This document shows, in pieces, positions 16,184-48,485 of a DNA stretch of 64,000 nt (its first letter is position 1; every line of letters begins with the position of its first letter). This DNA comes from Candidatus Falkowbacteria bacterium (GTDB lineage Bacteria; Patescibacteriota; Patescibacteriia; CAIXNZ01), in NCBI GenBank assembly GCA_963774955.1, contig CAVZGV010000004.1, forward strand, positions 296,716-360,715. Reading direction: 5' to 3'. The translations under genes were made by a program, and so were the position numbers. The notes beneath the pieces are model-generated. The model saw only the letters and a program-made list of their open reading frames with translations, had not been told where the DNA came from and made no database searches.

Positions 16184-16188
16184 CAACA

Positions 16189-16369: not shown

Positions 16370-16427
16370 TAGATACAAAAATAAGCGTCTGAACTTTTAA
16401 CTGCAACCTTTTCAAAGGAGGATACAT

Positions 16428-16697: not shown

Positions 16698-16790
16698 AAA
16701 AATACCCTCACACCCCGGGAGACTTTTATCCCGGGTTTTTTATTTGTAAGCCATTTTCAGCGTTTATTTGAGGTTATTTCCCCCTAACTA

Positions 16791-16819
16791 TTGACAAAAA
16801 GTGAAATATATGCTATTAT
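16791..16819 (+). promoter_or_regulatory. consensus sigma70 promoter, promoter module copy 2
   Basis: ctaactattgacaaaaagt-N9-tgctattat, identical core to copy 1. Confidence 0.55.
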
Positions 16820-16876
16820 GTAATGATGTGTCTTTTTTAGGATTGATTGTTTTTACCACTATAACCAAGGAGGAAT

Positions 16877-28493: not shown

Positions 28494-28769
28494 ATGACTC
28501 TCAAATCCGCGCATTTTTCTCAAAAACTGACAATCACCTTGTTAGTTTTTTTATTTATCTTTTCCCAGCCTGGCATTTTGCTGGCGGCCGAAGAAGCTGT
28601 AAATGACAATACCGTTTCGGTTAACACGACCGAATCCCCGGCCGAACCGGCCACTGACACTTCAGCTCAGCCGGCTGTAACTCCTGAAACACCGACAGCC
28701 CAGACGGTTCAGATCAGGCTACGGCTGATGCGGTCAAAGCTGACACGGAAACGCCAGATCAAGGCATGA
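28494..28769 (+). CDS. signal-peptide-bearing N-terminal segment, probably the true N-terminus of the giant RHS protein separated by a frameshift
   Basis: Signal peptide MTLKSAHFSQKLTITLLVFLFIFSQPGILLAAEE plus a PT-rich linker. The last 20 residues (RLRLMRSKLTRKRQIKA) look out of frame. The giant ORF frame upstream of its ATG reads linker-like sequence (DGSDQATADAVKADTETPDQG). Confidence 0.4.
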   Translation: MTLKSAHFSQKLTITLLVFLFIFSQPGILLAAEEAVNDNTVSVNTTESPAEPATDTSAQPAVTPETPTAQTVQIRLRLMRSKLTRKRQIKA

Positions 28770-31700
28770 ATACTTTAGACAGTTCCGGAGGAGAGGTGTA
28801 CGGAGACGTCTCCAATATTACTGATTCGCCCAAAACCAATAAATCAAATTTGGAAGTTGATCAGAACTCTGGTGCCTTATTATATAAATACCCGATACAA
28901 GTTCCTCCGGGCAGAAACGGCCTGCAACCTGACTTGGCTTTGAGTTACAATAGTCAGGATTTAAAATACGACAGTGAATTCGGTTATGGCTGGGGTATAA
29001 CTATTCCATACATTGAAAGGTTGCTTAAAAAAGGTATTGATAAGGCGTATACTGAAAATTATTTTACATCGTCTTTGAGCGGAGAATTGGAAGATGTTAG
29101 TTTGAGCGATGGGCATCACGGCACTTATGGCGCTAAAGTTGATAGCGGAGATTTTCTTAAATACGAGTTTAATACCAGTAACTATTGGTTGGTAACCGAT
29201 AAAAAGGGGACTGTGTACAAATTTGGATACAATGCTTCAGCTCGCCAGAATGATCCTAGTGACAGCTCACATGTGTTTAAATGGATGTTGGAGGAAGTCC
29301 GCGATACCAATAATAATTACATTAAATATGAGTATTATAAAGATAATGGTCAGATTTATCCCTCGGCGATAAAATATACCGGCTATAATACGACTGACGG
29401 AATTTTCGAAATAGATTTTTTAAGAGAAAGCCGGAGCAATGACTACGTTTCTTATAAAGAGGGTTTTGAAGCAACAACTGGTTATAGGATTTATGAAATC
29501 CAGGCCAAAGTTAGTGGGACATGGGCTAGAAAATATGAGCTGGACTATACGGCATCAAGTGAAAATGATTGGCAGGAATTATTAACTTCTATAACTGAAA
29601 GTGGCAATGACGGTAGTCAGACAATCAGTTTACCAGTTACTACGTTTACTTACCAAACGAATGGAGGATACGTTTTTTATACTCAGGATCAGAATGTTGA
29701 TTTTCCAACTAAAGCATATAATGCGATGTGGAACGGTCATGCCAGCAACGGCACTTTTTCAACTGATGCAAATGGCGACGGCCTATCCGATATTGTCCAA
29801 TATAAAGTAGGTTATACAAACTGCCAATATTCTTTAAGCAGAAGTTTTTTAAGTAACGGGAACGGTTGGGATGAATCAAGTGAATGGACTTCATTTAATT
29901 TAGCTAAAGAACAATATTGCCATAGTAATGGAGATTTTAGCGTATATTTAAGACCTGCGATTTTTATCGATATAAACGGAGATGGTTTATCTGATTTTGT
30001 GAAAAGTGGAATTAGATTAAATAACTCTGCTAATCAAGACTATGTAAGTATCAGCTGGAATATTCCCTTATCATTAACCGATGCCAATGGCTATGGAATT
30101 CAAGACTACGTTCATCTTGGAGATTTTAACGGCGACGGACTAGTTGATTATTTTGCTAAATATTACATAAATGGAAATTGGCATATGGATATTATGCCCA
30201 ATTTAGGTAATGGCTGGTATGTTGATAATACTTGGAGTTTCCCAAGTTATCTGAGCGATGGCATAATTTATAATCACGGCATTAAATTCGCGGATATTAA
30301 CGGTGATAGCCTGGACGATATATTGGTATCGCAGAATGATGACCAATACGGGACAATAAGAAAAGTATATTTAAACACCGGTGCCAAAAGTTGGGCGGAA
30401 ACAACTGATTTTACAATTTCTAGCAGCCTTGTTTTTTTTATCAGGCATACAAATCCCGATCAAAATATGGTTATGCCTATAGAATTTAATGATCTAAACA
30501 AGGACGGTTTAACTGATGTTATTTATGACGAGAGTGTTTATATAAATGACGGTTCGACCTTTATTGATACTACTGATATTACCTCTTTTTATAGCCCTTA
30601 TTTTGGTCAAATCTCCGGCCGAAATTTCATGGAAATAAACGGAGATGGTATGCCCGATTATTCCATATCCTCCAAGTCAGGCATTGATGAATCATATTGG
30701 GTCGGTTCCCAATATGAAAATTCAGAAGATTTAAGTAGTATTTCTAAATCGGTGTATATTAATCAAAAAAAGCCTTCGGGATTATTGATAGGTGTTGAAA
30801 ATTCCAAAGGCGGGTCAATGGAAGTTACTTACAAAGGTTCGGGTGAATACAAAGGTAGTAATGATAATTTACTAAATCCGCATTTGCCGGTGATTGTCCA
30901 GACCGTCTCCCAGATCACCTACAATGACGGCCTAAATAATTCATGGTCGGAAAATTACCAGTACGCCAACGGTGAATACTATTTTTCTGACTACCTGAAT
31001 CGCAAGCTGGCGGGATTTGGTTTGGTGACAAAGACTGATGCGGGAGGGAATGTTACGAAGTCATATTTTCATCAGGGGAATACTACTGACTCAAGTCATG
31101 GCGAATATTCTGATGATGTTTCCAAGATCGGCAAGGTTTATCGCGCAGAAGTTTATGATGACTCGGATAACTTATATTCAAAGTCCATTAATAAATGGGA
31201 AAATTATGATTTGGGGAATGACAGGGATTTTGTGAAGTTAACGCAAACGATTAGTTTTAGTTATGACGGTAATACAAGTCATAAGGACAAGGCTGAAACT
31301 TACACTTATGACAATGCGACCGGCAATTTGACGCAGAAAGTTACCTGGGGCGAGGTGACGGGTTCGGATAACGGCACGTACACGGACACCGGAACGGATA
31401 AATTTACGACTGATATAGACTATGCGGCCACTACGGGTAGCGCAGTCATTGGCTTGCCAAGCCAGGAGACGACTGAAGATCAAAGCAGTAATAAAGTTAA
31501 GGAAACCAAGTATTATTATGACAGTCTGACTTTGGGCAATGTGGATAAAGGCAATCTGACCAAACAGGAAATGTGGAAATCAGGCACCAGTTATATTGAT
31601 GTTGAAAAGACATATAATTCTTACGGCATAGTTACCCAGGAAAAGGATCCGCGCGATAAGACAACGGATTATACTTATGATTCATATAATTTGTATCCGG

Positions 31701-34700
31701 CGACTGTTACTAATGCGTTAGACCTGGATACTGATTATGAATATGATTATTCTTCAGGCAAGCCGACCCAGGTGACTGATCCTAATGGGCGGGTGTTTCA
31801 GACAGTTTATGATGCCCTGGACAGGGTAAAACAGGAAAAACAGCCGGATTTAACCACGCCGAGTACTTTGGTGGTTAAAACTGAATATACATACACTGAT
31901 AATACCGTACCGAGCAAAGTTCAGCAGACAAATAATCTGGATTCTTCAACGAGTTTTGATATTTATACTTATCTTGACGGTTTTGGACGAAAAATTCAGG
32001 AAAGAAAAGAGGCCGAGGCTTCAAATACATTTAGTGTCAAAGATTTTGCTTACAATGACCTTGGCCTGGTGGACAGGGAATCTTTGCCGTACTTTTCGAC
32101 CGGCACATCCAGAACAACCGCCACCACTGATAATTCGCTTTATACCAGTTACACTTATGATCCTTTGCAAAGAGTCGCCACCTCAACTAATGCAGTTGGC
32201 ACCACCACGAATACTTATGACGACTGGAAACTGACCATTACTGACGCGGAAAGCAATGTTAAGGATTTGTACAAAGATGCTTATGATAATTTAGTCCAGG
32301 TTGATGAACATAATGACTCAAGTACCTATACCACGACTTACGGGTATAATGGTCTGGGAAATTTATTAAATATTACTGATTCTCAGGATAATGTCAGGAA
32401 TTTTACTTATGACGGACTTGGCCGCAGATTAACAGCCGAGGATTTGCATGATCCTGAAGACGAATATTTTGGCGAGTGGACGTATGGTTATGATGATTCA
32501 GGTAATTTAACTTCCAGAACTGACCCCAATTCCCAGACAGTAAACTGGACTTATGATGATTTGAACCGCGTTTTGACTGAGGATTACACGGGTCAAAGCG
32601 GAACCGAAGTGGCTTATGTTTATGACACTGGAACGGACGGAATTGGCAGGCTTTATACGGCCACAACACCTGACGTGGTTACGACTCATACTTACAATCC
32701 GCTGGGCGGAGTGAAAACTGAAAATAAATACATTGATTCAACCAATTATCTGACCGAGTTTGCTTATGACCGCCAGGGAAACCAGACCTTGATTACTTAT
32801 CCGAGCGAAGATGAAGTTAAATACGAATACAACACGGCCGGGCTTTTGGAAAAGATTCAAAATAAACCAGCCGGTGAACAGTCTTTTACAGACCTGGTCA
32901 GCGATTATGATTATTCGCCTTTGGAGCAGGTAACTTATCAGGAAGACGCCAATGGCGTTAAAACCTTTAATACTTATGACGAGCAAAAATTGTACCGCCT
33001 AAAAGAGAAAATCACAGCCAGTCCGGATGAAGGTGATTATGGTGAAGGGATGTTTAATATGGCAATGGCTGTCCCGAGCGCAGGTGTCATTCAGAGCGGT
33101 AGCGAAGAATCCATTGCCCCCGCCACAACCGGAATCCTTTCAGCGCTCGGCGTTACTGCGGATTCGCCGTTGACGAGCGCAGGTGTCATTCAGAGCGATA
33201 GCGTGGAATCCATTGCCCCCGCCACAACCGGAATCCTTTCAGCGCTCGGCGTTACTGCGGATTCTCCCTTAACCCCGCTCATAAACAGTGTAACCATGGC
33301 TACGGAAAGTTTAGGTCTGGTTAAGGATCCTCAAATAGAACCGTTACCGGTTAAGCCTGGGGAAAAAGTCCAGCGGGATTTCCTCGGCCGGCCGGTTGAT
33401 TATTCCAATTATCCCAAAGATACCACGGTTTACATTAAAACAGATCCAAACGCCAAATCTCAGGAATTGCCTAAAGAAGCGATTGAAGCCTATGATAAAG
33501 CGGCTGCCAAGCCTCAACCCGAGCCTGAATTAAAGACTTTATTGCCCCAGGAGGCTGTTGATTATTACAACAGTCAGGCTCAAACATCACCAGGCGACGG
33601 CTCCATGATGCTTTTGGAAAGCGTTAATCCACCTAATCCGTCAACGAATTTACAAACTGAAAATTTATGGAAAAGCGACAATATAATCTACAATTCCGGT
33701 TTTGAAGACGGATTTGCATACTGGCAGTGGCAAAATAAGCAGGGCGATACGCATACGGAAGATTGCACAGTTTCCTACAGCGGTTCCTGTTCGGAAAAAG
33801 TTACCATTGCCACTTCAGGTAATTTTTGGGAAACCCAAGTTTACCAGGTTTTAAGGCTGGATGAGAATATTAATTACAAACTGCGTTTTAAGGCCAAAGC
33901 TTCAACAGCCATCACATTTAGCCTGGAAGCCGTGCAAAACCACACGCCATTCAATGACCTGGGCTTGTGGAAAGGGGATTTAAGCATTGGCACTGACTGG
34001 CAGGAATACGAATATACTTTTACTGCTTTGGCAAGCGATCAGGACGCCAGAGTAACCTTTTATCTGGGCGCCAATGCGGCAGATTACTGGTTTGACGATA
34101 TTGAACTCATACCCGATGCTCTCAATATGCTGAAAAATACCAGTTTTGAAAACAATCTTGATAATTGGGAATTTTATGATTACAACAGCACCAGCGAAAA
34201 TACCCGAGACTGCGCAGAAGCGTCTGACGGCGACTGCAATAACAAGGTGGAAAATATGCAGAGCGGTGAATGGTGGCAGGTTTCCCTTAACCAGCCGATT
34301 TCAGTGGTGGCTGACCAGACCTATATTCTGACGTTTTACGCTCATTCCAATTACGATACTCGAATAGCCAAGGTGGCAATCGCCAAGAATTACAGTCCCT
34401 GGACTGATTTGACCGCCATTGCCGAATTTCACACCAACTGGAACGGCGGTTTTGCCAAATACCAGATTGAGCTGACCCCGAACGCCACTGAAAGCAACGC
34501 CCGCCTGATCTTTTATCTGGGCGATGATCAGGGCTGGATTAAGCTGGACAGTCTGCGCTTATGGCCTCAGCAGGCGACTAAGGTTTCAGATTCAACCCCT
34601 GAATTCTCCGCGATTTATGATGATCCGGATTCCGGGGATTATGCAACAGATTACCAGATACAATTAATCAAATATGATGGGAACTGGTCGAACCCCATCT

Positions 34701-36454
34701 GGGATAGTGGGAAGACATCGTTTAATTCTAACGTTTTAGAAGGTAACAGGACTGAAGACATTATTTATGACGGCGACGCCTTGCCTTTGGACGGCATGAA
34801 ATACAAGTGGCGCATCAAGTTATGGGACGAGTCGGATAATGAGGGTGTCTGGACTAATGGCGAGGACTTTTTCATTATGAATGGCAAGCGGATTCAGGAT
34901 TTAAGTTACACCTACGATGATGTGGGCAATATTACGCAGATTATTGACGAGTCTGAAACCAACACGAAGAAAGCCGCCAACTACGCTTATGATGATTTAT
35001 ATCGCTTAACATTGGCCACAATTACGGATTCCGCGACTGATGAGGATTACACTCAGACGTACACTTATGATTCATTAGGTAATTTTACAGACAGGTCAGA
35101 TGTCGGGGATTATGATTATGACGGCAATACCGGGACAAGTTATGCCAATCCGCATGCGGTTACCAGCGTACAGAATGACGCAGTAGCCATAAACTATGAT
35201 CATAATGGTAATTTAACCAGTGAGATTTTAAGCCAGTATCAATGGACGATCTTTGAGGCGGAGTGGGATTACAATAACCGGATGATAAGTTCAGGAGGCT
35301 GGTCAGCAGAAACCGTGTACAGCTATGATCACAGCGGGCAGAGGATTGTGAAGGACACCGGCGATGAATATAGCGGTATTACTACTATTTATGCGAACAA
35401 GTACTACAACGAGCGGACGAACAAGGAAACGTCGGAATTGACCAAGACATTGAATATTTATGACAATAAAGGGAATTTAGTTGCTACGGGCGAAGAAGTC
35501 GGAGAAACTAGTAATATTTATTACGTAAATGGTGACCATTTGGGAAGTTCCAGCGTTATGACGACTGATACAGGGGACATGGAACAGGTGGTTGACTATT
35601 TTCCGTATGGAAATATGCGGTTTAATGAGCAGAGAGTACAAAATGAAAGCTATGATCAGAAGGAAAAATTTTCCGGAAAAATTTTCGATCAGGATGCAGC
35701 TGGGTTGTCATATTTCGGAACCAGGTACTATTCTGGTGAAGCAGGGAAGTTTATTAGTGAGGATCCTGTGTTTTTAGCAGTTGGTGATAATGAAAATATA
35801 AAAAGGTTAGCAAGAATTGAATTACAGCAGTATTTATCCAATCCGCAGATAATGAATAGTTATTCATATTCCTATAACAATCCTTTGATTTATAAGGATG
35901 GTGATGGTAACTTTGCATTTTTGATCCCCATTGCTGCTTATGCAGTCGCTACTGCACCAGTATGGGTACCAGCAGTAATTACCTGGTCTGCCGCCACTAC
36001 TTTAGCCATTAGCACACCACTTGTCGGGGGACAAATATATTCATATGCTAAAGGAGATAATGCAACTGGGAATCAGATGGGTGATGTCGCGATGGGGGTT
36101 ATGGGGATTGAGGCAGGTGTAGCTGGCGGTATTATGTCCATAGATAAAATGTTGAGTTCATCTTATAATAAGCCGGCAAATAGAACAAAATCTAACAGTA
36201 AATCAGCCCCCCTTTTTTCAAGTCATGCACAAATGCGTATGGAGCAAAGAGGAATTTCGATAGATCAAGTTAAGAATGTAATGGAAAATAATAAACCATT
36301 TAATTATTATCACGAAAATAATTGGAAAACTGGGTATTATGATCAATCTAGTAAAGTATTCGTCGCACAAGCAAATGAAAGTGGGCAGGTCATAACCGTA
36401 ATAAACGATGTAAGTCCGCAATATATTAGTAATTTACAATCACTAAAACCATGA
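28766..36454 (+). CDS. giant TcB/TcC-like RHS-repeat polymorphic toxin (2562 aa): SpvB N-domain, FG-GAP repeats, RHS/YD repeats, 2 CBM4/9-like modules, RHS core, DUF4258-like C-terminal toxin
   Basis: SpvB-like LYKYPIQVPPGRNGLQPDLALSYNSQ...GYGWG. Six DxNGDGxxD FG-GAP repeats. Many YD repeats. NSGFEDG...W CBM-like modules. RHS core YYVNGDHLGSSSVMTTD...DYFPYGN...RYYSGEAGKFISEDP. C-terminal HAQMRMEQRGISIDQVKNV... resembles DUF4258. Confidence 0.85.
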   Translation: MNTLDSSGGEVYGDVSNITDSPKTNKSNLEVDQNSGALLYKYPIQVPPGRNGLQPDLALSYNSQDLKYDSEFGYGWGITIPYIERLLKKGIDKAYTENYFTSSLSGELEDVSLSDGHHGTYGAKVDSGDFLKYEFNTSNYWLVTDKKGTVYKFGYNASARQNDPSDSSHVFKWMLEEVRDTNNNYIKYEYYKDNGQIYPSAIKYTGYNTTDGIFEIDFLRESRSNDYVSYKEGFEATTGYRIYEIQAKVSGTWARKYELDYTASSENDWQELLTSITESGNDGSQTISLPVTTFTYQTNGGYVFYTQDQNVDFPTKAYNAMWNGHASNGTFSTDANGDGLSDIVQYKVGYTNCQYSLSRSFLSNGNGWDESSEWTSFNLAKEQYCHSNGDFSVYLRPAIFIDINGDGLSDFVKSGIRLNNSANQDYVSISWNIPLSLTDANGYGIQDYVHLGDFNGDGLVDYFAKYYINGNWHMDIMPNLGNGWYVDNTWSFPSYLSDGIIYNHGIKFADINGDSLDDILVSQNDDQYGTIRKVYLNTGAKSWAETTDFTISSSLVFFIRHTNPDQNMVMPIEFNDLNKDGLTDVIYDESVYINDGSTFIDTTDITSFYSPYFGQISGRNFMEINGDGMPDYSISSKSGIDESYWVGSQYENSEDLSSISKSVYINQKKPSGLLIGVENSKGGSMEVTYKGSGEYKGSNDNLLNPHLPVIVQTVSQITYNDGLNNSWSENYQYANGEYYFSDYLNRKLAGFGLVTKTDAGGNVTKSYFHQGNTTDSSHGEYSDDVSKIGKVYRAEVYDDSDNLYSKSINKWENYDLGNDRDFVKLTQTISFSYDGNTSHKDKAETYTYDNATGNLTQKVTWGEVTGSDNGTYTDTGTDKFTTDIDYAATTGSAVIGLPSQETTEDQSSNKVKETKYYYDSLTLGNVDKGNLTKQEMWKSGTSYIDVEKTYNSYGIVTQEKDPRDKTTDYTYDSYNLYPATVTNALDLDTDYEYDYSSGKPTQVTDPNGRVFQTVYDALDRVKQEKQPDLTTPSTLVVKTEYTYTDNTVPSKVQQTNNLDSSTSFDIYTYLDGFGRKIQERKEAEASNTFSVKDFAYNDLGLVDRESLPYFSTGTSRTTATTDNSLYTSYTYDPLQRVATSTNAVGTTTNTYDDWKLTITDAESNVKDLYKDAYDNLVQVDEHNDSSTYTTTYGYNGLGNLLNITDSQDNVRNFTYDGLGRRLTAEDLHDPEDEYFGEWTYGYDDSGNLTSRTDPNSQTVNWTYDDLNRVLTEDYTGQSGTEVAYVYDTGTDGIGRLYTATTPDVVTTHTYNPLGGVKTENKYIDSTNYLTEFAYDRQGNQTLITYPSEDEVKYEYNTAGLLEKIQNKPAGEQSFTDLVSDYDYSPLEQVTYQEDANGVKTFNTYDEQKLYRLKEKITASPDEGDYGEGMFNMAMAVPSAGVIQSGSEESIAPATTGILSALGVTADSPLTSAGVIQSDSVESIAPATTGILSALGVTADSPLTPLINSVTMATESLGLVKDPQIEPLPVKPGEKVQRDFLGRPVDYSNYPKDTTVYIKTDPNAKSQELPKEAIEAYDKAAAKPQPEPELKTLLPQEAVDYYNSQAQTSPGDGSMMLLESVNPPNPSTNLQTENLWKSDNIIYNSGFEDGFAYWQWQNKQGDTHTEDCTVSYSGSCSEKVTIATSGNFWETQVYQVLRLDENINYKLRFKAKASTAITFSLEAVQNHTPFNDLGLWKGDLSIGTDWQEYEYTFTALASDQDARVTFYLGANAADYWFDDIELIPDALNMLKNTSFENNLDNWEFYDYNSTSENTRDCAEASDGDCNNKVENMQSGEWWQVSLNQPISVVADQTYILTFYAHSNYDTRIAKVAIAKNYSPWTDLTAIAEFHTNWNGGFAKYQIELTPNATESNARLIFYLGDDQGWIKLDSLRLWPQQATKVSDSTPEFSAIYDDPDSGDYATDYQIQLIKYDGNWSNPIWDSGKTSFNSNVLEGNRTEDIIYDGDALPLDGMKYKWRIKLWDESDNEGVWTNGEDFFIMNGKRIQDLSYTYDDVGNITQIIDESETNTKKAANYAYDDLYRLTLATITDSATDEDYTQTYTYDSLGNFTDRSDVGDYDYDGNTGTSYANPHAVTSVQNDAVAINYDHNGNLTSEILSQYQWTIFEAEWDYNNRMISSGGWSAETVYSYDHSGQRIVKDTGDEYSGITTIYANKYYNERTNKETSELTKTLNIYDNKGNLVATGEEVGETSNIYYVNGDHLGSSSVMTTDTGDMEQVVDYFPYGNMRFNEQRVQNESYDQKEKFSGKIFDQDAAGLSYFGTRYYSGEAGKFISEDPVFLAVGDNENIKRLARIELQQYLSNPQIMNSYSYSYNNPLIYKDGDGNFAFLIPIAAYAVATAPVWVPAVITWSAATTLAISTPLVGGQIYSYAKGDNATGNQMGDVAMGVMGIEAGVAGGIMSIDKMLSSSYNKPANRTKSNSKSAPLFSSHAQMRMEQRGISIDQVKNVMENNKPFNYYHENNWKTGYYDQSSKVFVAQANESGQVITVINDVSPQYISNLQSLKP

Positions 36455-36681
36455 AAATCACTTATGACAAATCTATAGATGCGGTATACATATATTTAAT
36501 TCCTAATCAAAGAATCCACCCGGGATGGTCTAAAAAAACTTATCCTTGTGACCCCAAAGAAGTAAATGGCATGATTAATTTAGACTTTGATAATAAAGGT
36601 AGGCTGGGTGGGATTGAAATAATTGGAGCTAGTCAAAAATTACCAAAAGAAATTATCGATTCAGCTGAAGTTATTGGTTAG
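36451..36681 (+). CDS. DUF2283-like immunity/antitoxin protein (cognate to the DUF4258 toxin tip)
   Basis: MKITYDKSIDAVYIYL...INLDFDNKGRLGGIEIIGAS matches the DUF2283 pattern. ATGA overlap with the toxin stop. Confidence 0.6.
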   Translation: MKITYDKSIDAVYIYLIPNQRIHPGWSKKTYPCDPKEVNGMINLDFDNKGRLGGIEIIGASQKLPKEIIDSAEVIG

Positions 36682-36789: not shown

Positions 36790-38605
36790 CCAATTACAAT
36801 TAATCAAATATGACGGGGCGTGGTCGAACCCTGTTTGGGACTCTGGCAAAACAAGTTTTACAAGTTCAGTTTTAGAAGGCGATAGGACGGAGGATATTGC
36901 GTATGACGGCGATGCATTGCCTTTGGACGGCATGAGGTACAATTGGAGGATTAAGCTGTGGGACGAATCTGATAATGAGGGCGAGTGGACCAATGGCGAA
37001 GATTTTTTCATCATGCAGGGCAAGAGAATTCAGGATTTGAGTTATACTTACGATGACGTAGGGAATATAATGCGAATAGATGACCAATCGGAGACAAATA
37101 CCAGGAAAACCGCTGAATACGAATATGACGAATTATATCGCTTAACCAGCGCCACAATTACCGATTCCGCCACTGAAGAAGATTACACGCAGACTTATAC
37201 GTATGACAGCTTGGGCAACTTTACTAATCGTTCCGATGTCGGTGATTATGAGTATGAGGGCAATCAGGGAACCAACTATGCCAATCCGCATGCGGTTACC
37301 AGCGTACAGAATGATGCAGTGGTCATAAACTATGACCATAATGGCAATCTGTTGTCAGAAATTATTTCTGGGTATAACTGGACAATATTTGAAGCCGGGT
37401 GGGATTATAATAACCGGATGATAACAAGCGGAGGTTGGTCAGCAGAAACCTTGTACCGCTATGATCACAGCGGGCAGAGGATTCTAAAGGATACCGGCGA
37501 TGAATATAGCGGCATTACGTCCATTTATGCTAATCAGTACTACAACGAGCGGACAAATAAGGAAACATCGGAATTGACCAAGACATTGAATGTGTATGAC
37601 AACAAAGGTAATTTAGTCGCCACCGCAGAAGAAGCCGGTGAGACAAATAATCTTTACTATGTGAATGGTGATCATTTGGGAAGTTCCAGCGTGATGACGA
37701 CTGACGAGGGTGAGCAAGAGCAGGTGGTTGATTATTTCCCGTTTGGGAATATGCGGTTTAATGAGCAGAGGATACAAAATGAAAGCTATGATCAGAAGGA
37801 AAAATTTTCCGGAAAAATTTTCGATCAGGATGCCGCGGGGTTAAGTTACTTTGGGGCGAGATACTATTCGGGGGAGGCCGGGAAGTTCATTAGTCAGGAC
37901 CCTGTATTTTTAGCAGTTGGGGATGGTGAAGGTTATAAGAAATTGACTAATTTTAAATTTGAACTTTATCTTTCCAATCCCCAATTACAAAATTCCTATG
38001 CGTATGCAGCTGATAATCCTTTAAAATTTATTGATACAAAAGGCAATATTGCTGAAACAGTCTGGGATGCCGGATGTGTAGCATTTGACATTGGTAGCTA
38101 CTTCCATAATGAGTTGAAAGCTGTTGGTGCTTTATTCCGAGGCGATCTTAGTGGCGCGGTCAATCATACAAACGAAGCAATGGGCTTTCTGTTAAATCTC
38201 GGAGTAGATACTGGGTCTGCTATGATCCCTTTTGTTCCCGCTGGGTTATCGCATGTTGATGATGCGGCTAAAGCGACATCATTAGTTAGACAGAACTGGG
38301 CTAAGGGTATGCAGTTTGAGAATAAAGTCTTGAATTTATTGGGAGAATCTAAAAACACTCAAAAGATTTCTACTCAATTTGGTAATGTGATACCTGATAT
38401 TTATAATAAGGCAGGAAATATTATTGGTGAGATAAAAAATACTGCGTATGCATCCCTAACAAATCAATTTAAGGGTATTTTAGAAATGGTAGAAAAAGGG
38501 AAATCCCAATTTACATTATATGTAAATCAAAATACTAAAATTTCTGGGCCGTTACAAAAAGCGATAGATACCATTAAAGGAACAGTACAAAGAATAACTC
38601 ATTGA
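36790..38605 (+). CDS. orphan RHS-core cassette with alternative C-terminal toxin (PD-(D/E)xK nuclease-like); longest ATG-ORF is 36917..38605
   Basis: About 90% identical to the giant gene's 3' region from the junction caattaatcaaatatgacgggg onward. The tail diverges after NPLKFIDTKGN, with IPDIY...GEIK suggesting a REase fold. Confidence 0.65.
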
Positions 38606-39598: not shown

Positions 39599-42500
39599 AT
39601 GTCTAAACTCAAAATTTGGTTGGGTACCATTTTATTTGCCATAAGTAGCATCCCGAATATTTCTTTGGCAAATATTTCTGATGGGCAAATCAATCTTGAT
39701 AAAACTGATTTTTTTGAAATCGGGTATGTTTTTGCTGGAAACGAGCCAATAGCATTAGTTCTATCAGAGAAGAAGGATGCGGAATTTAAACAACTAATAG
39801 TCCTTCCAGAACAAAAGGTTCAGCACGACTTTCTCGGACGTCCTGTTGATTACCAGAATTACCCCCAGGACAAAACAGTGTATCTGAAAGCTGATCCTAA
39901 TGTTAAGCCCCAAGCCTTGCCCAAAGAGGCGATTGAGTCGTTTGATAAGGCGAGCGAGAAATGGAACCAAAAGCCGGAGTTAAAGACATTGTTGCCCCAG
40001 GAGGCTGTTGATTATATGTCCAAGCAGGAAACAGCCAAGGGTATGAATATGCTGCTTTCAGGTACTCCGCCTAATCCGTCCACTAATTTGAATTCCAATG
40101 ATTTATGGCTGAGTCAAAATTTAATCACCAATCCGGGCTTTGAAGACGGGTTTAATAACTGGAGCTGGCAGAATAAACAGGGGGACACGCACCAGGAAGA
40201 CTGCACGGTTTCATACAGTGGCAGTTGTTCGGAAAAGGTTTCAGTTGCCTCAGCCGGTAATTTCTGGGAAACCCAGGTCTTTCAGGTTTTAAGATTAGAT
40301 CAGAATACGGATTATAAACTGCGCTTTAAGCTTAAGGCGTCAACAAGCGCAAGTTTTTCACTGGAAGCGGTGCAAAACCACACGCCGTTTAATAACTTGG
40401 GCTTATGGAAATACCAGCTGACCGCAAGTACTGACTGGCAGGAATACGAATTTTATTTTAGCGGACTGGCAACTGATCAGGATGCCAGACTGACCTTTTA
40501 TTTGGGTGAAAGCGCCGCTGATTATTGGTTTGACGACATAGAATTGATTCCTGACAATTTTAACCGCCTGAAAAACCCGAGTTTTGAAAATGGTACTACG
40601 AGCTGGGATTTTTACATCTACTCTCAGGGACAGGGCACTTTAAGCACCGATACAGGCGCCATGCCTGACGGCAATACAGCCGCCAAAATAGACTTTACCG
40701 GGGCAGGAGAAAACTGGGAAGTCAATCTGGCCCAGGGAATAGGGGCAGTAAGTTCGGCTAAGACTTATGCGGTTACCTTTTACGCCCGTTCTTTTTATCA
40801 GAACCGGCTGGCTTATGTGGCTCTGGCGCAGAATTATAGTCCCTGGTCAGATTTGACTGATGAGGTAGAATTTACAGCTACGCCTGACTGGCAAAAGTAT
40901 GAAATAGATTTTACTCCAAGTTCTTCGGATTCCAATGCCCGGGTAATTTTCCTGCTGGGTACTGACACGATCAGCATTGAGTTTGACGACATTCATGTCT
41001 TTGAAAAACAGGTGACCAGGTTTGACACTGAACCCACTTTTAGCGCGATTTACGATGATCCGGATTCAGGGGATTATGCAGAATATTACCAAGTTCAAAT
41101 AATAAAGTATGACGGGGCCTGGTCGAACCCCGTCTGGGACTCTGGCAAAACAAGTTTTACAAGTTCAGTTTTAGAAGGCGATAGGACGGAGGATATTGCG
41201 TATGACGGCGATGCCTTGCCTTTGGACGGTATGAAGTACAACTGGAGGATAAAGTTATGGGACGAATCTAATAATGAAGGCGCCTGGACTAATGGCGAAG
41301 ATTTTTTCATCATGAATGGCAAGAGGATTCAGGACTTGTCTTATTCGTATGACAACGTTGGCAACATTGCCCAGATAATTGATCAATCGGAGACAAATAC
41401 CAGAAAAACCGCTGAATTACGAATATGACGAATTGTATCGCCTAACGTTCGGCTACGATTAGCGGACAGCTGCGACAAATGAGGATTACACTCAGACATA
41501 TACTTATGATTCTTTGGGTAACACTACTAGATCAGGTCTGATGTAGGCGATTACGATTATGAAGGCAATACAGGTTCAAATTACGCCAATCCGCATGCGG
41601 TAACCAGCGTACAGAATGACGCAGTGGTAATAAACTATGACCAAAATGGAAATCTGATCGACGAAGTTTTAAGCCAGTATCAATGGACTATTTTTGAGGC
41701 GGAGTGGGATTATAATAACCGGATGATAACAAGCGGAGGTTGGTCAGCAGAAACCTTGTACCTCTATGATCATAGCGGGCAGAGGATTCTAAAGGATACC
41801 GGCGATGAATATAGCGGCATTACGTCCATTTACGCTAATCAGTACTACAACGAGCGGACAAACAAGGAAACCTCGGAATTGACCAAGACATTGAATGTGT
41901 ATGACAACAAAGGTAATTTAGTTGCCACCGCAGAAGAAGCCGGCGAGACAAATAATCTTTACTATGTGAATGGTGATCATTTGGGAAGTTCCAGCGTGAT
42001 GACGACTGACGAGGGTGAGCAAGAGCAGGTGGTTGATTATTTCCCGTTTGGGAATATGCGGTTTAATGAAAGAAGCGATGCGGAGAATTGGTCCTTTGAC
42101 GAAAAGAAAAAGTTCACGGGGCATGAGTATGACGCGGACGCCGCTGGCCTTACTTATATGGGAGCACGCTATTATAGTGGAGAGGCGGGTAAATTCATAA
42201 GTCAGGATCCATTATTTTGGATTGTTGGTGATAAAGACTATAATGATATGTGGAGAGAAAAATTATTTTCCCCGCAGTCGTTAAATTCATATTCTTACGG
42301 TCTAAATAATCCGATGATATATTTAGATCCAACGGGTTTAGATAGTGATGTATTTTACACAAAACCTTTCTCATCTCAGGCATCAGCTGAACAAAGTAGA
42401 TTATCTTCAGCATATGGAGAACCAGTGTATATGCATGAAGTTTCAACTGTTAATCAATTTACATCTGCCTGGAATGGTATGGGTAAAAATGGTTCAGATA

Positions 42501-42955
42501 TAGATGAGGTTACTATTCTGTCGCATAGTGATGCGAATAATATTTACTTGAATGGAGATAAAGAAAAACTTACCACAACACCAAATATGTTTAATGTAGA
42601 TCCCAAAACCCTAGGAACCTCAATTGATTCATTAAGTAAAAAAGATATCGGTCAGATAAATTTATATACATGCGAAGGGGGTAATATAAGCCACGCCACG
42701 AATTTAGCCAAAGCCTTTGCTACTTCACAGCAAACTACTGTGATGGGTTTTGATGGTAGATTATCTTTTGTTCCATTTTTAGGAAGTCCCATGTTTTCAC
42801 TTCGAGGGCAATTAAAACATTACAATGAATACGGCAGAGCTCCGTTAGGTTGGGTTACTTACAGTAAAAATGGAAGCTATAGTGTCGGAAATGATTCACA
42901 GCGTCCGCCTTATATTTATAAGTGGATAGGTTATTTTGCTGGTTTTAATAATTAA
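39599..42955 (+). pseudogene. second secreted RHS-like toxin gene (signal peptide + CBM-like modules + RHS core + distinct C-terminal toxin), disrupted by indels around 41400-41620
   Basis: ORFs 39599..41428 and 41624..42955 are colinear with giant protein residues about 1530-2400. Region 41400-41620 has scrambled/indel versions of sequence that is intact at 46908-46990. Canonical NPMIYLDPTGL precedes the toxin tip. Confidence 0.6.
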
Positions 42956-43953: not shown

Positions 43954-44352
43954 ATGAGGTTTTTTATGTCCGGAGAAGTAAGTGGCGAAGCTCACGAAAA
44001 ATTCAGAGTATTAATGCTCGAAATTGAAAAACAAATTAAAAGTTTGATGAATATTAATGATTATGGGGATGCAGTTTCTGAGATTGCCATAATACCTACT
44101 ATATTTTCCGCTGAATTTTTAACAGCTTTGCCCTATAAAGAACGCAAGCGATTTTCACCTAAAACGAAAGTAGGTGAGTTTAGATTAAGGATAGATTACG
44201 ATAAATTTGTTAAGGCAAACGAAGATAGTAAACGTAGATTAATAGTGCAAAATATTATTGATTCAATCAGGATTCTAAAAACAAAAGTTAAAAAAGGATT
44301 TGATGGCGACAAATTGGAAAAAGATATTAGAGAATTATTCAAAATAGAATAG
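43954..44352 (+). CDS. hypothetical protein (immunity candidate)
   Basis: 132 aa, SD-like GAGATGAGG upstream. No domain recognised. Confidence 0.4.
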   Translation: MRFFMSGEVSGEAHEKFRVLMLEIEKQIKSLMNINDYGDAVSEIAIIPTIFSAEFLTALPYKERKRFSPKTKVGEFRLRIDYDKFVKANEDSKRRLIVQNIIDSIRILKTKVKKGFDGDKLEKDIRELFKIE

Positions 44353-44394: not shown

Positions 44395-46220
44395 ATTACC
44401 AAGTTCAAATAATAAAGTATGACGGGGCGTGGTCGAACCCTGTTTGGGACTCTGGCAAAACAAGTTTTACAAGTTCAGTTTTAGAAGGCGATAGGACGGA
44501 GGATATTGCGTATGACGGCGATGCCTTGCCTTTGGACGGTATGAAGTACAACTGGAGGATAAAGTTATGGGACGAATCTAATAATGAAGGCGCCTGGACT
44601 AATGGCGAAGATTTTTTCATCATGAATGGCAAGAGGATTCAGGACTTGTCTTATTCGTATGACAACGTTGGCAACATTGCCCAGATAATTGATCAATCGG
44701 AGACAAATACCAGAAAAACAGCCGAATACGAATATGACGAATTATATCGCCTAATTTCAGCGACAATTACGGATTCCGCCACAGAAGAGGATTACACCCA
44801 GACCTATACTTATGATTCTTTGGGTAACACTACTTATCGTTCTGATGTAGGCGATTATGATTATGAGGGCAATACAGGTTCAAATTACGCCAATCCGCAT
44901 GCGGTAACTAGCGTACAGAATGACGCAGTGGTAATAAACTATGACCAAAATGGAAATCTGACCGACGAAGTTTTAAGCCAGTATCAATGGACTATTTTTG
45001 AGGCGGGGTGGGATTATAATAACCGAATGGCGACATCAGGAGGTTGGTCGGATTCTGCTGTTTATAAATATGACCATAGCGGACAACGAATATGGCAGGA
45101 GACCGGAGGCCAGTATTATGGCGTAAAAACAATTTACCCGAATAAATACTATAATGAAAGGACGGATAAGTTTCTGGCTGAGACTGTTGACACCTTGCAA
45201 ATATATGATAATAAAGGGCAGTTAATAGCTACCGGGGAGGAAAACGGAGAAACTTCAAATATTTACTTTGTCCATAATGATCATCTAGGTTCTTCCAGTG
45301 TAATGACAAAAAGTGACGGGAATGTTGAGCAGGTAATCGATTACTACCCGTTTGGTGATATCAGATTCAACGAAAGAAGTGATCCTGATAATAATTCCTT
45401 TGACGAGCGCGTCAAGCATTCTAACCATTTGTACGATGACAATACGTCATTAACATACATGGGGGCTAGGTATTACACAGGAGCCGGGGGAAAATTTGCG
45501 AGTCAAGATGAGGCATATTTAGCTGTTGGTAGTAGTCAATTAAGGGATCTAACTAATAGAAGTTTAAGCGAATATTTAGGCGATCCTCAGAATTTAAATT
45601 CTTATACTTACGCACGAAACAATCCTATAATAAATATTGACCCCACTGGCAATTTTTGGTGGTATGGATTTTATAATTGGAGCGGATATAATGGTTTCAG
45701 TGGTTTCATGATGAAGGCGGGGGAAGTTTTAGGCGGTCATAATCGAGCGATGAATGTAATTCAGCAGAATCAAACTATAATAAATGAAACAAGCGATAAA
45801 TATGGGGTTAATCCCAATTTAACCAACGCAATTATTTATGAAGAGCAGTCTCATCTAACTCCAGATGAAGTTGTGGGAAGAGAGCAACTATTGCCTGATG
45901 TAGGGAGTGGTGGCGTGGGTGTAATGCAAGTAAGTGCAAAAGTCGGTGAAGAATTTGGGTATAGTAAAAGTGATTTAGCTCGCGATCCGGTTAAGAATAT
46001 AAATGCGGGAATTCAGAATTTATCTAAAGAGCAGAATGTATCTAATTCAGCAGCAGTTACAGCAAGTAAATATAATAATAGCCAAGCTACTAATATTACA
46101 AATTATGGATTAAGAGTAGAAGCTCAATTAAACAATCCCAGTTATAACCGCAATATTATAACTGATGTTAAGAATTCGGTTTCAGCGATTAAATCACTGT
46201 ATAATTTAATAAGTAAATAA
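44395..46220 (+). CDS. orphan RHS-core cassette with lytic transglycosylase (SLT)-like C-terminal toxin; longest ATG-ORF is 44526..46220
   Basis: Homology to the giant gene starts at ccaagttcaaataataaagtatgacgggg. The tail after NPIINIDPTGN contains IYEEQSHL...GSGGVGVMQVS, an SLT-like catalytic-Glu context. Confidence 0.6.
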
Positions 46221-46569: not shown

Positions 46570-47655
46570 ATGTTTATAAATACCAAATATTACCAAGTTC
46601 AAATAATAAAGTATGACGGGGCCTGGTCGAACCCCGTCTGGGACTCTGGCAAAACAAGTTTTACAAGTTCAGTTTTAGAAGGCGATAGGACGGAGGATAT
46701 TGCGTATGACGGCGATGCCTTGCCTTTGGACGGTATGAAGTACAACTGGAGGATAAAGTTATGGGACGAATCTAATAATGAAGGCGCCTGGACTAATGGC
46801 GAAGATTTTTTCATCATGAATGGCAAGAGGATTCAGGACTTGTCTTATTCGTATGACAACGTTGGCAACATTGCCCAGATAATTGATCAATCGGAGACAA
46901 ATACCAGAAAAACCGCTGAATACGAATATGACGAATTATATCGCCTAACGTCCGCCACGATTACGGACAGCGCCACTGAAGAGGATTACACCCAGACATA
47001 TACTTATGATTCATTGGGCAACACTACTTATCGTTCTGATGTAGGCGATTATGATTACGAGGGCAATACAGGTTCAAATTATGCCAATCCGCATGCGGTT
47101 ACCAGCGTACAGAATGACGCAGTGGTCATAAATTATGACCAAAATGGAAATCTGACCGACGAAGTTTTAAGCCAGTATCAATGGACTATTTTTGAGGCGG
47201 GGTGGGATTATAATAATAGGATGATAACAAGCGGAGGCTGGTCTGCAGATACCGTGTACAGCTATGATTACAGCGGGCAGAGAGTCTTTATGGAAACCGG
47301 TGATGAGTATTCGGGCAAGGTCAATATTTATGCTAATAAGTACTATAGTGAAACAACTGACAAGGAAGCATCGGAACTTACCAAGACTCTGTACGTCTAT
47401 GATAATAAAGGCAATTTAGCGGCCACCGGGGAAGAAAAAGGAGAAACCAGCAATCTTTACTTTGTCAGTGGAGATCATTTAAGTTCGTCCAGTGTCATGA
47501 CAACGGATCAAGGCGAAATAGAGGAAGTGATTGATTATTATCCTTACGGCAATTTGAGGTTTAATGAAAGAAGCGATGCGGAGAATGGGTCCTTTGATGA
47601 AAAGAAAAAGTTTTTGGAAAGATTAATTATTCTTAATATATTAATTAATAATTAA
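46570..47655 (+). pseudogene. truncated orphan RHS-core cassette (no toxin tip)
   Basis: Colinear with the other cassettes but ends ...NERSDAENGSFDEKKKF then junk. Confidence 0.55.
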
Positions 47656-48289: not shown

Positions 48290-48485
48290 TTGTTTTATAC
48301 AATTAATCAAATATGATGGGACCTGGTCGAACCCCATCTGGGACTCTGGCAAAACAAGTTTTACAAGTTCAGTTTTAGAAGGCAACAGGACTGAAGACAT
48401 TATTAAAAATAGGAAAACCCCCGGCTTTAGCCGGGGAGACTTGAAAAGCTTTGAGCGTTCCTTTGGGGCGCGTATATTTGCTTAA
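48290..48485 (+). pseudogene. remnant of a further RHS cassette junction (about 110 bp of homology) ending in a terminator hairpin
   Basis: caattaatcaaatatgatgggacctggtcgaacccc...gttttagaaggcaacaggactgaagacattatt, then cccccggctttagccgggg. Confidence 0.5.

What the first reader, a model, noticed from the sequence alone, without database searches (positions are those of the whole stretch)
28766..36454. Unusual domain insertions inside the RHS shell protein: two CBM4/9-like modules plus an alpha-L-rhamnosidase-N-like/FN3-like module between the YD-repeat region and the RHS core
Between the YD repeats and the conserved core (YYVNGDHLGSS...DYFPYGN) sit two modules starting N(S/P)GFE(D/N)G...W...FDDIELIP. 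They resemble carbohydrate-binding modules of family 4/9. A further block, YDDPDSGDYATDYQIQLIKYDGNWSNPIWDSGKTSF...YDGDALPLDGMKYKWRIKLWDE, resembles the N-terminal beta-sandwich of bacterial alpha-L-rhamnosidases. Carbohydrate-binding modules inside an RHS cage protein would suggest glycan-mediated target recognition. The same modules recur in the second, shorter secreted gene at 39599.
Basis: partly seen in the sequence, partly recalled or inferred. Interest (0 to 1): 0.6.

Follow-up and report, generated by a model that had tools for sequence, protein, structure and literature searches.

The report
Sugar-binding modules on an RHS toxin cage
A giant secreted toxin-cage protein of an ultra-small (Patescibacteria) bacterium carries two real carbohydrate-binding modules and an Ig-like domain at a fixed seam in its shell, most likely as outward-facing grappling hooks for target cells; similar decorated cages are already known.

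Summary
The 2562-aa ORF (28766-36454) reads SpvB, FG-GAP propeller, RHS shell, a roughly 620-aa insert, a short RHS C-part with core, hydrophobic helices, then a DUF4258 toxin. A DUF2283 immunity gene follows. The insert holds a linker, two CBM_4_9 modules and one Ig_Rha78A_N domain. Pfam, PDB sequence hits (CBM4 of T. maritima Lam16A) and AlphaFold plus Foldseek (CBM22 tandem, CBM4) all agree.

Comparison with about 60 relatives, nearly all Patescibacteria MAGs, shows one precise, permissive site. Some relatives have 3-4 residues there. Most have 450-1130 aa of variable modules ending in 1-3 Ig domains. About ten lineages carry the same CBM pair.

In two metagenome contigs the protein is split at exactly this site into a B-like and a C-like gene, each with its own signal peptide. 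The "insert" is therefore the N-terminal appendage of a TcC-like half.

The "second secreted gene" at 39599 is an orphan C-like cassette with its own signal peptide. It is disrupted by small indels and belongs to an array of 4-5 orphan toxin cassettes.

Glycan-mediated targeting is plausible but untested. Precedents exist (mosquito SGS1; a Saccharibacteria RHS toxin with PA14 and galactose-binding domains). I rate it a new variant of a known kind, of moderate interest.

The parts
28494..28769 (+). 91-aa ORF that carries the Sec signal peptide of the toxin. A single frameshift (somewhere in about 28686-28766) separates it from the main ORF.
   Evidence: Its N-terminus (LLVFLFIFSQPGILLAAEEAV) matches the in-frame N-terminus of the L001 orthologue (LLVFLFIFTSQPGLVLAAEEAV). 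It has a hydrophobic core at aa 11-36.
28766..36454 (+). Main ORF of 2562 aa: a fused TcB/TcC-like RHS cocoon toxin.
28868..29365 (+). SpvB/TcB N-terminal domain (aa 35-200).
   Evidence: Pfam SpvB, 63.3 bits. PDB sequence hits to SpvB 6p0x and YenB 4igl_A.
29720..30715 (+). FG-GAP beta-propeller region (about aa 320-650; Pfam best stretch 510-586).
   Evidence: Pfam FG-GAP_3, 26.4 bits, borderline. The L001 orthologue scores 58 bits.
30803..33013 (+). N-terminal part of the RHS/YD shell (about aa 680-1416). It ends at the seam '...LYRLKEKIT'.
   Evidence: RHS_repeat, 79.7 bits. It is colinear with all relatives up to aa ~1417.
33014..33685 (+). Junction and linker (aa 1417-1640). It includes a 99-bp tandem repeat x1.9 at 33075-33264. 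The stretch aa 1506-1640 is shared with the mature N-terminus of cassette B.
   Evidence: No Pfam hit. TRF result. 59% identity to P7 residues 41-172.
33686..34120 (+). CBM_4_9 module 1 (aa 1641-1785), with a conserved Cys pair and the GFE...DD motif.
   Evidence: 55.3 bits. 1gui E 6e-10. AF2 pLDDT about 70-90 and Foldseek CBM4 1gu3 TM 0.80. Invariant residues.
34127..34573 (+). CBM_4_9 module 2 (aa 1788-1936).
   Evidence: 46.6 bits. 1gui E 1.6e-3. The top Foldseek hit for the pair is tandem CBM22-1/CBM22-2, 4xup, E 4e-11.
34577..34885 (+). Ig_Rha78A_N-like (FN3/Ig) domain (aa 1938-2040). Across the family it sits directly before the shell resumes.
   Evidence: 31.3 bits as a segment. Relatives score 44-114 bits. 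All-beta, with 10-residue-block pLDDT 48-82.
34886..35911 (+). C-terminal part of the RHS shell plus RHS core (aa 2041-2382: YYVNGDHLGSS, DYFPYGN, RYYSGEAGKFISEDP, NNPLIYKDGDGN).
   Evidence: Aligns to YenC2 351-678, E 2.5e-12. Conserved in all cassettes.
35912..36145 (+). Post-core hydrophobic, glycine-rich helices (aa 2383-2460). These are the only strongly hydrophobic stretches in the protein.
   Evidence: Hydropathy scan. Conserved in P0002, which has a different toxin tip.
36215..36403 (+). DUF4258 toxin tip (aa 2484-2546).
   Evidence: Pfam, 30.2 bits.
36451..36681 (+). DUF2283 small protein. I take it to be the cognate immunity/antitoxin.
   Evidence: Pfam, 44 bits. Its start overlaps the toxin's stop codon.
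36791..38605 (+). Orphan cassette A. Homology to P1 aa 1964-2453 (73%), with a Tox-REase-7 tip. The 319-aa ORF at 38633-39592 follows.
39599..42955 (+). Orphan C-like cassette B: own signal peptide, linker, CBM x2, Ig, RHS-C and a different tip. Four small insertions at about 41414-41540 interrupt it.
43954..44352 (+). Imm44 immunity gene downstream of cassette B.
   Evidence: Pfam, 89.5 bits.
44397..46220 (+). Orphan cassette C (P1 aa 1963-2383, 70%) with an SLT lytic-transglycosylase tip. The membrane ORF 46222-46563 follows.
46591..47655 (+). Orphan cassette D (P1 aa 1963-2302, 79%), truncated in the core. The Imm11 gene 47668-48285 follows.
48297..48404 (+). Fragment E: a 36-codon remnant of the Ig domain (P1 aa 1965-2000, 92%).

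Best explanation
The gene encodes a Sec-secreted, self-contained Tc 'BC'-like RHS cocoon toxin of a Patescibacteria (Parcubacteria-type) bacterium.

The SpvB domain, the FG-GAP propeller and about 740 aa of YD repeats form a B-like part. About 340 aa of YD repeats plus the RHS core form a C-like part, which closes the cage around the hydrophobic helices and the DUF4258 toxin.

A flexible linker, two CBM4/22-type beta-jelly-roll modules and an Ig/FN3 spacer are attached at the seam between the two parts. Inference: these modules lie on the outside of the cage. There they act as a bivalent glycan- or receptor-binding head that docks the loaded cage onto the envelope of a target or host cell. The payload is then released and translocated with the help of the hydrophobic helices.

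The seam is a plug-in slot. Relatives carry other modules there, or none, or are split there into two secreted subunits.

Downstream orphan cassettes supply alternative toxin tips by recombination. One of them, cassette B, also supplies an alternative CBM pair.

Shown: domain identities, the exact insertion site, its variability, the split forms, the signal peptides, and the toxin/immunity/orphan organisation.

Inferred: the outward position, glycan binding, and the targeting role.
For: Domain identity:
- Pfam CBM_4_9 twice and Ig_Rha78A_N, all above cut-off.
- PDB sequence hits to CBM4 modules.
- AF2 model with CBM and Ig blocks at pLDDT about 65-90.
- Foldseek hits to tandem CBM22 (4xup, E 4e-11) and CBM4 (1gu3, TM 0.80, rmsd 2.3 A), and to the CBM-like receptor domains of Cry1 and Vip3 toxins.

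Exact, permissive site:
- In 7 of 36 genome or representative relatives, and 4 of 29 metagenome relatives, the two flanking anchors are 3-4 residues apart.
- The others hold 160-1132 aa there; inserts of 446 aa or more contain 1-3 Ig domains.
- The CBM pair sits at the same site in L001, L083 and eight 50%-identity cluster representatives at 34-66% identity, so the arrangement is maintained.

Seam:
- In L080 the B-like ORF stops at '...LYRLTNIFTD*', which corresponds to P1 aa 1417. A downstream gene encodes signal peptide, LamG, Ig, LamG, Ig, RHS-C and HNH.
- In L094 a B-like gene with a signal peptide stops 16 aa after the seam. It overlaps the start of a C-like gene that has its own signal peptide.

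Secretion: the signal-peptide ORF is orthologous to the N-terminus of L001.

Toxin system: DUF4258 with DUF2283, Tox-REase-7, an SLT tip, Imm44 and Imm11.

Faster divergence of the CBMs: against the orthologue, the shell is 81% identical but the CBMs 57-66%. Against cassette B, CBM2 is 44% while Ig and RHS-C are 81-83%.

Conserved Cys pairs and a GFE...DD motif fit extracellular, folded modules.

Precedent: cryo-EM of mosquito SGS1 shows a CBM and a lectin domain inserted in the Rhs/YD sequence and sitting on the outside of the shell, with TM helices stored inside (PMC9935623).
Against: - No binding data exist, and the ligand cannot be read from the sequence.
- The outside position is inferred only. 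The grounds are the size of the insert, the low-complexity linker, the 0-1130 aa variability, the split forms and the SGS1 analogy. The structure tool returns no coordinates, and the RHS-C part of the model was poor (pLDDT about 40-55).
- The main gene has a frameshift between the signal peptide and the body in this assembly. It may be an assembly error, or the gene may be newly inactivated.
- No TcA-like partner or other translocon is in the window, so the entry route of the toxin is unknown.
- Faster CBM divergence would also fit relaxed constraint.
Confidence: 0.6

Rival explanations
1. Self-anchoring. The CBM pair binds a polysaccharide of the producer's own envelope. The secreted cage, which has no LPXTG, SLH or membrane anchor, then stays on the cell surface and is delivered on contact, as with wall-associated WapA-type toxins.
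For: The protein is Sec-secreted and has no other retention signal. The only hydrophobic stretches are the signal peptide and the post-core helices. Patescibacteria are thought to live attached to other cells (established knowledge). CBM1 is fairly conserved between the two in-genome copies, at 77%.
Against: The slot's content differs greatly between close relatives and is empty in some. That is unexpected for a housekeeping anchor. The CBMs diverge faster than the shell, which is more typical of receptor-binding parts.
Confidence: 0.2
2. The modules have a CBM fold but do not bind sugars. They recognise a protein receptor, or they serve only as spacers or solubility domains at a tolerant seam.
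For: Foldseek also matches CBM-like domains of Cry1 and Vip3 toxins, whose partners are not only glycans. Other family members carry non-CBM modules at the same slot, namely LamG and unannotated domains.
Against: There is clear sequence-level homology to bona fide glucan-binding CBM4, including a conserved Trp and a QNH motif aligned with 1gui. These residues are invariant or at least 90% conserved in 11 orthologues.
Confidence: 0.12
3. Artefact. The 'insertion' is a chimeric assembly or an accidental gene fusion in this MAG, with no biological meaning.
For: The region is repetitive, with five related cassettes. The contig shows a frameshift at the 5' end and indels in cassette B.
Against: The same continuous architecture occurs in an independent genome (L001, 58% identity over aa 22-2381; Pfam finds CBM_4_9 twice) and in eight further cluster representatives.
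Confidence: 0.03

Closest known systems
Tc (ABC) toxin BC subcomplex, e.g. YenB/YenC2 (PDB 4igl), and the 'TcdB/TcaC-type' polymorphic toxins of Zhang et al. 2012 (PMC3482391)
   Same: Both have, in this order, an N-terminal SpvB domain, an integrin-like FG-GAP propeller, an RHS cocoon, an RHS core and a variable C-terminal toxin. Both exist as two subunits or as a fusion. In both, alternative C-parts carry different toxins.
   Different: No TcA is in the window. The protein has a Sec signal peptide. The C-like part corresponds only to YenC2 351-678, so the seam is not at the canonical TcB/TcC junction. The seam carries lectin-type modules. Immunity genes and an orphan array mark it as an interbacterial polymorphic toxin.
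Mosquito salivary protein SGS1 (cryo-EM, PMC9935623)
   Same: It is a Tc-like Rhs/YD cocoon whose sequence is interrupted by a CBM and a lectin-CRD that sit on the outside of the shell. Hydrophobic helices follow the core and are stored inside the cage.
   Different: No sequence relationship was detected (no PDB hit). SGS1 is eukaryotic, its modules are of a different type and position, and no orphan cassettes or immunity genes are described for it.
Saccharibacteria 2487-aa RHS/YD 'secreted toxin' with PA14 and galactose-binding domains (Starr et al. 2018, PMC6031116)
   Same: It is also a Patescibacteria giant RHS toxin with lectin-like domains and a neighbouring immunity gene.
   Different: The paper only mentions it from annotation. 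The domain types differ, and neither the position in the shell nor the seam was analysed.
CBM4/CBM22 modules of glycoside hydrolases (1gui, 1gu3, 4xup)
   Same: Same fold and family (PF02018), also arranged in tandem.
   Different: They are attached to a toxin cage rather than to an enzyme, and the ligand is unknown.
Teneurins and bacterial teneurin-like proteins
   Same: A YD shell decorated with extra domains (NHL propeller, FN-plug) that are used for partner recognition (PMC9935623 discussion).
   Different: The domains and positions differ, and the toxin module of teneurins is degenerate.

Membership tests
CBM_4_9 (PF02018; CAZy CBM4/9/16/22) | Profile match above the curated cut-off | tested here: met
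   55.3 and 46.6 bits against a cut-off of 25.9 for the two isolated segments. The L001 orthologue scores 62.5 bits with 2 stretches. The whole-protein scan of P1 did not list the family, presumably because HMMER's filters dropped it in this long repetitive protein.
CBM_4_9 (PF02018; CAZy CBM4/9/16/22) | Beta-jelly-roll fold | tested here: met
   AF2 gives all-beta modules with 10-residue-block pLDDT about 55-91. Foldseek: 4xup E 4e-11, 1gu3 TM 0.80 with rmsd 2.3 A, 1gui TM 0.70.
CBM_4_9 (PF02018; CAZy CBM4/9/16/22) | Carbohydrate binding in the concave cleft | not testable with these tools
   Only indirect evidence. A Trp aligned with W59 of the 1gui chain and the QNH motif are conserved in the orthologues. 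That these are ligand contacts is from my memory only.
Ig_Rha78A_N (PF25788) | Profile match above the cut-off | tested here: met
   31.3 bits against 27.4 as a segment and 24.6 bits in the whole protein. Equivalent domains of relatives score 44-114 bits.
RHS/YD polymorphic toxin | YD/RHS repeats and an RHS core preceding a variable C-terminal toxin | tested here: met
   RHS_repeat 79.7 bits and a DUF4258 tip. The core aligns to YenC2. The tips differ between cassettes.
RHS/YD polymorphic toxin | Aspartyl autoprotease motif (DPxGL type) at the end of the core | tested here: inconclusive
   P1 reads NNPLIYKDGDGN|FAF. Cassette B reads NNPMIYLDPTGL and cassette C NNPIINIDPTGN. The P1 variant lacks the Pro, and cleavage was not tested.
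RHS/YD polymorphic toxin | Adjacent immunity gene and orphan toxin cassettes | tested here: met
   DUF2283, Imm44 and Imm11. There are 4-5 orphan cassettes.
Tc toxin BC subcomplex (TcB+TcC) | SpvB N-terminal domain and FG-GAP beta-propeller in the B part | tested here: met
   SpvB 63.3 bits; FG-GAP_3 26.4 bits against 26.9, borderline. The orthologue is clear, with FG-GAP_3 at 58 bits. L041 also hits TcdB_toxin_midN.
Tc toxin BC subcomplex (TcB+TcC) | A TcA pentamer partner encoded nearby | tested here: not met
   There is no TcA-like ORF in the 64-kb window. The neighbours are rpoB, rpoC, IF-2, RNase Y and similar genes. The rest of the genome was not seen.
Tc toxin BC subcomplex (TcB+TcC) | The B/C boundary at the canonical TcB/TcC junction | tested here: not met
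   The C-like part aligns only to YenC2 351-678. The natural split in L080 and L094 is at P1 aa ~1417. It works like a BC pair but is cut elsewhere.
SGS1-type decorated cocoon | Sequence homology to SGS1 | tested here: not met
   No SGS1 chain appeared among the PDB sequence hits at E<=0.001. It is an analogue, not a member.

The most novel reading that the evidence does not exclude
The seam is a dedicated, exchangeable receptor-binding slot of a two-part Patescibacteria toxin cage. B-like and C-like halves can be made as separate secreted subunits and assemble outside the cell. Orphan C-like genes such as cassette B (own signal peptide, alternative CBM pair, different toxin) would then let a cell switch target specificity and payload together. 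This would give ultra-small episymbionts a programmable, TcA-independent delivery device and would point to the surface glycans they recognise on partner cells.
Probability: 0.2. Interest if true: 0.7.

Novelty: new variant of a known kind. Interest (0 to 1): 0.45.

Why it matters
How Patescibacteria (CPR) cells recognise and act on other cells is largely unknown, and few are cultured. This family offers a defined, comparable slot in a widespread secreted toxin where recognition modules are swapped. The modules include CBM4/22 pairs, LamG and several unannotated domains.

If the modules do bind target glycans, their ligands could be found with recombinant domains, without culturing the organism.

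The natural fused and split versions also give a simple system for asking how RHS cocoons assemble, and how a BC-type cage delivers its cargo without TcA.

For annotation, the 609-aa 'secreted CBM protein' should be read as part of an orphan toxin cassette, not as a glycan-degrading accessory.

Tried and rejected
- **Whole-protein Pfam scan of P1.** It did not list CBM_4_9. Rescanning the isolated segments recovered both modules. I attribute the miss to HMMER's filters on a long repetitive protein, not to absence.
- **Bac_rhamnosid_N.** It gave no hit. The match is to Ig_Rha78A_N.
- **First word-indexed homologue search with the insert.** It found only 6 proteins. That database appears to return only proteins up to about 1.2 kb of residues, so the giant relatives were missed. 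The exhaustive HMMER search and the genome and metagenome scans found them.
- **Idea that the insert sits at the canonical TcB/TcC junction.** Rejected, because RHS-C aligns to YenC2 351-678.
- **Idea that cassette B uses a recoded stop.** Rejected. The break consists of four small insertions (+1, +1, +2, +2) relative to the sister cassettes.
- **Synteny of rpoB/rpoC with relatives' loci.** None found. Taxonomy came from RpoB homologues instead.
- **The look-up of encoding contigs and the listing of cluster members for P7.** They gave no record or organism name.
- **AF2 of aa 1636-2345.** It gave usable CBM and Ig domains, but the isolated RHS-C was poor and pTM was 0.33. It says nothing about how the modules sit relative to the cage.
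- **Residue-level check of the CBM4 ligand site in the literature.** The one open paper (PMC3975366) gives no residue list.

Full report
**1. What is in the sequence**

The ORF 28766-36454 (+) encodes 2562 aa. Pfam on the whole protein finds the following:
- SpvB (aa 35-200, 63 bits)
- FG-GAP_3 (aa 510-586)
- RHS repeats (80 bits)
- a sub-threshold Ig_Rha78A_N (aa 1938-2031)
- a C-terminal DUF4258 toxin domain (aa 2484-2546)

The whole-protein scan did not list CBM_4_9. Scanning the three suspected modules separately did find them:
- CBM_4_9, 55.3 bits (E 1e-14)
- CBM_4_9, 46.6 bits (E 6e-12), against a cut-off of 25.9
- Ig_Rha78A_N, 31.3 bits, against a cut-off of 27.4

By sequence alone, CBM1 finds the solved CBM4-2 of Thermotoga maritima laminarinase 16A (1gui, E 6e-10), GH10-associated modules and C. 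fimi CenC CBM4. CBM2 finds 1gui more weakly.

I built an AlphaFold2 model of aa 1636-2345 from an alignment of 11 orthologous segments. It has three all-beta modules with 10-residue-block pLDDT mostly 55-91, and a poorly defined isolated RHS tail. Foldseek against the PDB returns these hits:
- the tandem CBM22-1/CBM22-2 of Xyn10C (4xup, E 4e-11)
- CBM4 modules (1gu3, TM 0.80, rmsd 2.3 A; 1gui; 3p6b)
- the CBM-like receptor domains of Cry1 and Vip3 toxins

**2. It is a true insertion at one exact site**

A scan of one genome per species returned 79 loci, almost all from Patescibacteria MAGs: Parcubacteria, Nomurabacteria, Saccharibacteria, Dojkabacteria and others. RpoB of the window is 95% identical to a Candidatus Parcubacteria MAG protein, so the window belongs to that phylum.

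Relatives of 2200-3100 aa are colinear with P1 over aa ~20-1417 and again from aa ~2041. I used anchors on either side of the site to measure what lies between them:
- 7 of 36 relatives have only 3-4 residues between the anchors (for example L041, L017, L018, L023).
- 2 have about 206-225 aa.
- The rest have 446-1093 aa, with one or two Ig_Rha78A_N domains placed directly before the shell resumes.

A metagenome scan gives the same picture, with 4 of 29 uninterrupted.

The CBM pair occupies this slot in L001 (58% identity to P1 over aa 22-2381; Pfam confirms CBM_4_9 twice) and in L083. It also occupies the slot in eight representatives of 50%-identity clusters found by an exhaustive HMMER search. 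The architecture is therefore maintained in about ten lineages and is not an assembly artefact.

Other relatives carry modules without any Pfam match at the slot, or LamG-type domains. Ig-containing insertions also occur at two other points in some relatives, at roughly P1 aa 115 and aa 835.

**3. The site is a subunit seam**

In metagenome contig L080 the upstream ORF aligns to P1 aa 497-1417 and stops at '...LYRLTNIFTD*'. P1 reads '...LYRLKEKIT' at that point. A 136-aa membrane ORF follows. After it comes a gene for signal peptide, LamG, Ig, LamG, Ig, RHS-C and an HNH toxin, and then an immunity-type gene.

In L094 a 2076-codon B-like ORF with an N-terminal signal peptide stops 16 residues after the seam. 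It overlaps the start of a 1039-codon C-like gene whose product begins MTTMNNINKKLTIISVLFGLLIPTVLFAAS and contains Ig, RHS-C and a toxin.

The same cage is therefore made either as one chain or as two secreted chains cut exactly here. This resembles TcB/TcC, but the cut is at a different place, because P1 aa 2033-2350 aligns to YenC2 residues 351-678.

Read this way, the CBM-CBM-Ig block is the N-terminal appendage of the C-like half. In fused proteins it appears as an internal insertion.

**4. The neighbourhood**

The 91-aa ORF 28494-28769 carries a signal peptide orthologous to the in-frame N-terminus of the L001 protein. One frameshift in about 28686-28766 separates it from the body. The protein is thus meant to be Sec-secreted, as are its relatives.

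A DUF2283 gene (36451-36681) follows the DUF4258 tip. Downstream lie the orphan cassettes:
- A, 36791-38605, with a Tox-REase-7 tip
- B, 39599-42955
- C, 44397-46220, with an SLT tip
- D, 46591-47655
- remnant E, 48297-48404

They are interleaved with Imm44, Imm11 and other small genes. Cassettes A, C, D and E all begin within about 10 nt of the same point, inside the Ig domain at P1 codon ~1963.

Cassette B is different. It starts with its own signal-peptide-like N-terminus. It then contains the linker, both CBMs, the Ig, RHS-C and a distinct tip. It is interrupted at 41414-41540 by four small insertions relative to its sisters.

The window holds no TcA-like gene.

**5. How it most likely works**

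Shown: this is a secreted BC-type RHS cage with a cargo made of hydrophobic helices plus a toxin. The helices (aa 2383-2460) are the only strongly hydrophobic stretches in the protein. Also shown are the cognate immunity candidate, the recombination cassettes, and a slot at the seam filled with two bona fide CBM-fold modules and an Ig spacer.

Inferred: the modules lie outside the cage. My reasons are these:
- The slot tolerates 0-1130 aa.
- It starts with a low-complexity linker that contains a 99-bp tandem repeat.
- It can be a free N-terminus in the split forms.
- The modules have conserved Cys pairs.
- A cage of about 1000 aa could not also house 68 kDa of folded domains.

Also inferred: the modules dock the cage to a glycan on a target or host envelope. 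Three things fit a recognition role. The CBMs diverge faster than the shell (57-66% against 81% with the orthologue). CBM2 is the most divergent part between the two in-genome copies (44% against 81-83% for Ig and RHS-C). The slot's content changes between relatives.

I give this explanation 0.6. The rivals are:
- anchoring to the producer's own wall, 0.2
- non-glycan binding or a mere spacer, 0.12
- artefact, 0.03, which the orthologues effectively exclude

**6. Comparison with what is known**

Zhang et al. 2012 define the TcdB/TcaC-type class of polymorphic toxins as signal peptide, SpvB, integrin-like propeller and RHS (PMC3482391). P1 belongs to that class.

Cryo-EM of mosquito SGS1 showed a CBM and a lectin-CRD inserted in the Rhs/YD sequence and placed on the outside of the shell, with TM helices stored inside (PMC9935623). 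This is the closest mechanistic analogue, but no sequence relationship was detected.

A Saccharibacteria genome paper mentions a 2487-aa RHS toxin with PA14 and galactose-binding domains and a neighbouring immunity gene (PMC6031116). My searches found no paper describing the fixed slot, its Ig cap, the CBM4/22 clade or the split forms in Patescibacteria.

**7. Verdict**

The finding is real, and the domain calls are right. The functional reading is plausible but unproven. The 'second gene' is an orphan cassette. Lectin-decorated RHS cages are already known, so this is a new variant of a known kind. The added value is the seam or slot concept across a CPR-wide family. Interest: 0.45.

Noticed in passing
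window 28494-28800: The signal-peptide ORF and the main RHS ORF are in different frames. A single frameshift in a low-complexity stretch (about 28686-28766) separates them, whereas the L001 orthologue is in one frame. This is either an assembly error or a recent inactivation.
   Followed up: partly
window 33075-33264: A 99-bp tandem repeat of 1.9 copies at 96% match. It encodes two 33-aa units (SAGVIQS.S.ESIAPATTGILSALGVTADSPLT) in the junction just after the seam.
   Followed up: partly
window 36791, 44397, 46591, 48297 (vs 34650): Four orphan cassettes start their homology to the main gene within about 10 nt of the same point, inside the Ig domain at codon ~1963. Cassettes A and C also share about 30 nt upstream of it. 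This suggests serial duplication of one unit or a preferred breakpoint.
   Followed up: partly
window 41414-41540: Cassette B carries four small insertions (+1, +1, +2, +2 nt) relative to cassettes A, C, D and the main gene. They produce stops and a temporary frame change, and the frame is restored afterwards.
   Followed up: yes
L080 1-6730; L094 108-9450: These are natural two-gene versions of the same cage. A B-like gene ends at the seam, and a C-like gene with its own signal peptide follows. In L094 the two overlap; in L080 a 136-aa membrane ORF lies between them.
   Followed up: yes
L016, L029, L068, L076 (near P1 aa ~115); L017, L018, L023, L027, L069 (near P1 aa ~835): Relatives carry Ig_Rha78A_N-containing insertions at two further fixed points of the protein, so there seem to be three slots in the family.
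   Followed up: partly
L002, L003, L006, L008, L015, L024 slot regions (e.g. L002:8417-10324): The slot of many relatives holds a conserved module of about 450 aa (motifs such as YPV(R/T)TDA and SYYAGSGDG; duplicated in L015). It has no significant Pfam match. L007 gives only a weak CBM96 hint (E 0.003). It may be an undescribed domain.
   Followed up: partly
window 35912-36145 and P0002: A hydrophobic, glycine-rich segment directly after the RHS core is conserved between P1 and P0002, although their toxin tips differ. It may be a shared translocation module, comparable to the helices stored inside SGS1.
   Followed up: partly
window 48538-49544: The cassette array ends with two small ORFs (94 and 76 aa, not examined) and an IS200-type transposase (Y1_Tnp, 121.7 bits).
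   Followed up: partly
window 50000-52000 and 14000-18000: G+C rises to 0.54 and 0.47-0.49 against about 0.39 elsewhere. At 50.5-51.4 kb, long ORFs overlap on both strands. This may be foreign or unusual DNA.
   Followed up: no
window 28766-36454 (method note): hmmscan of the full 2562-aa protein did not report CBM_4_9 at all, although both modules score 46-55 bits when cut out. Domain calls on giant repetitive proteins can miss clear modules.
   Followed up: yes
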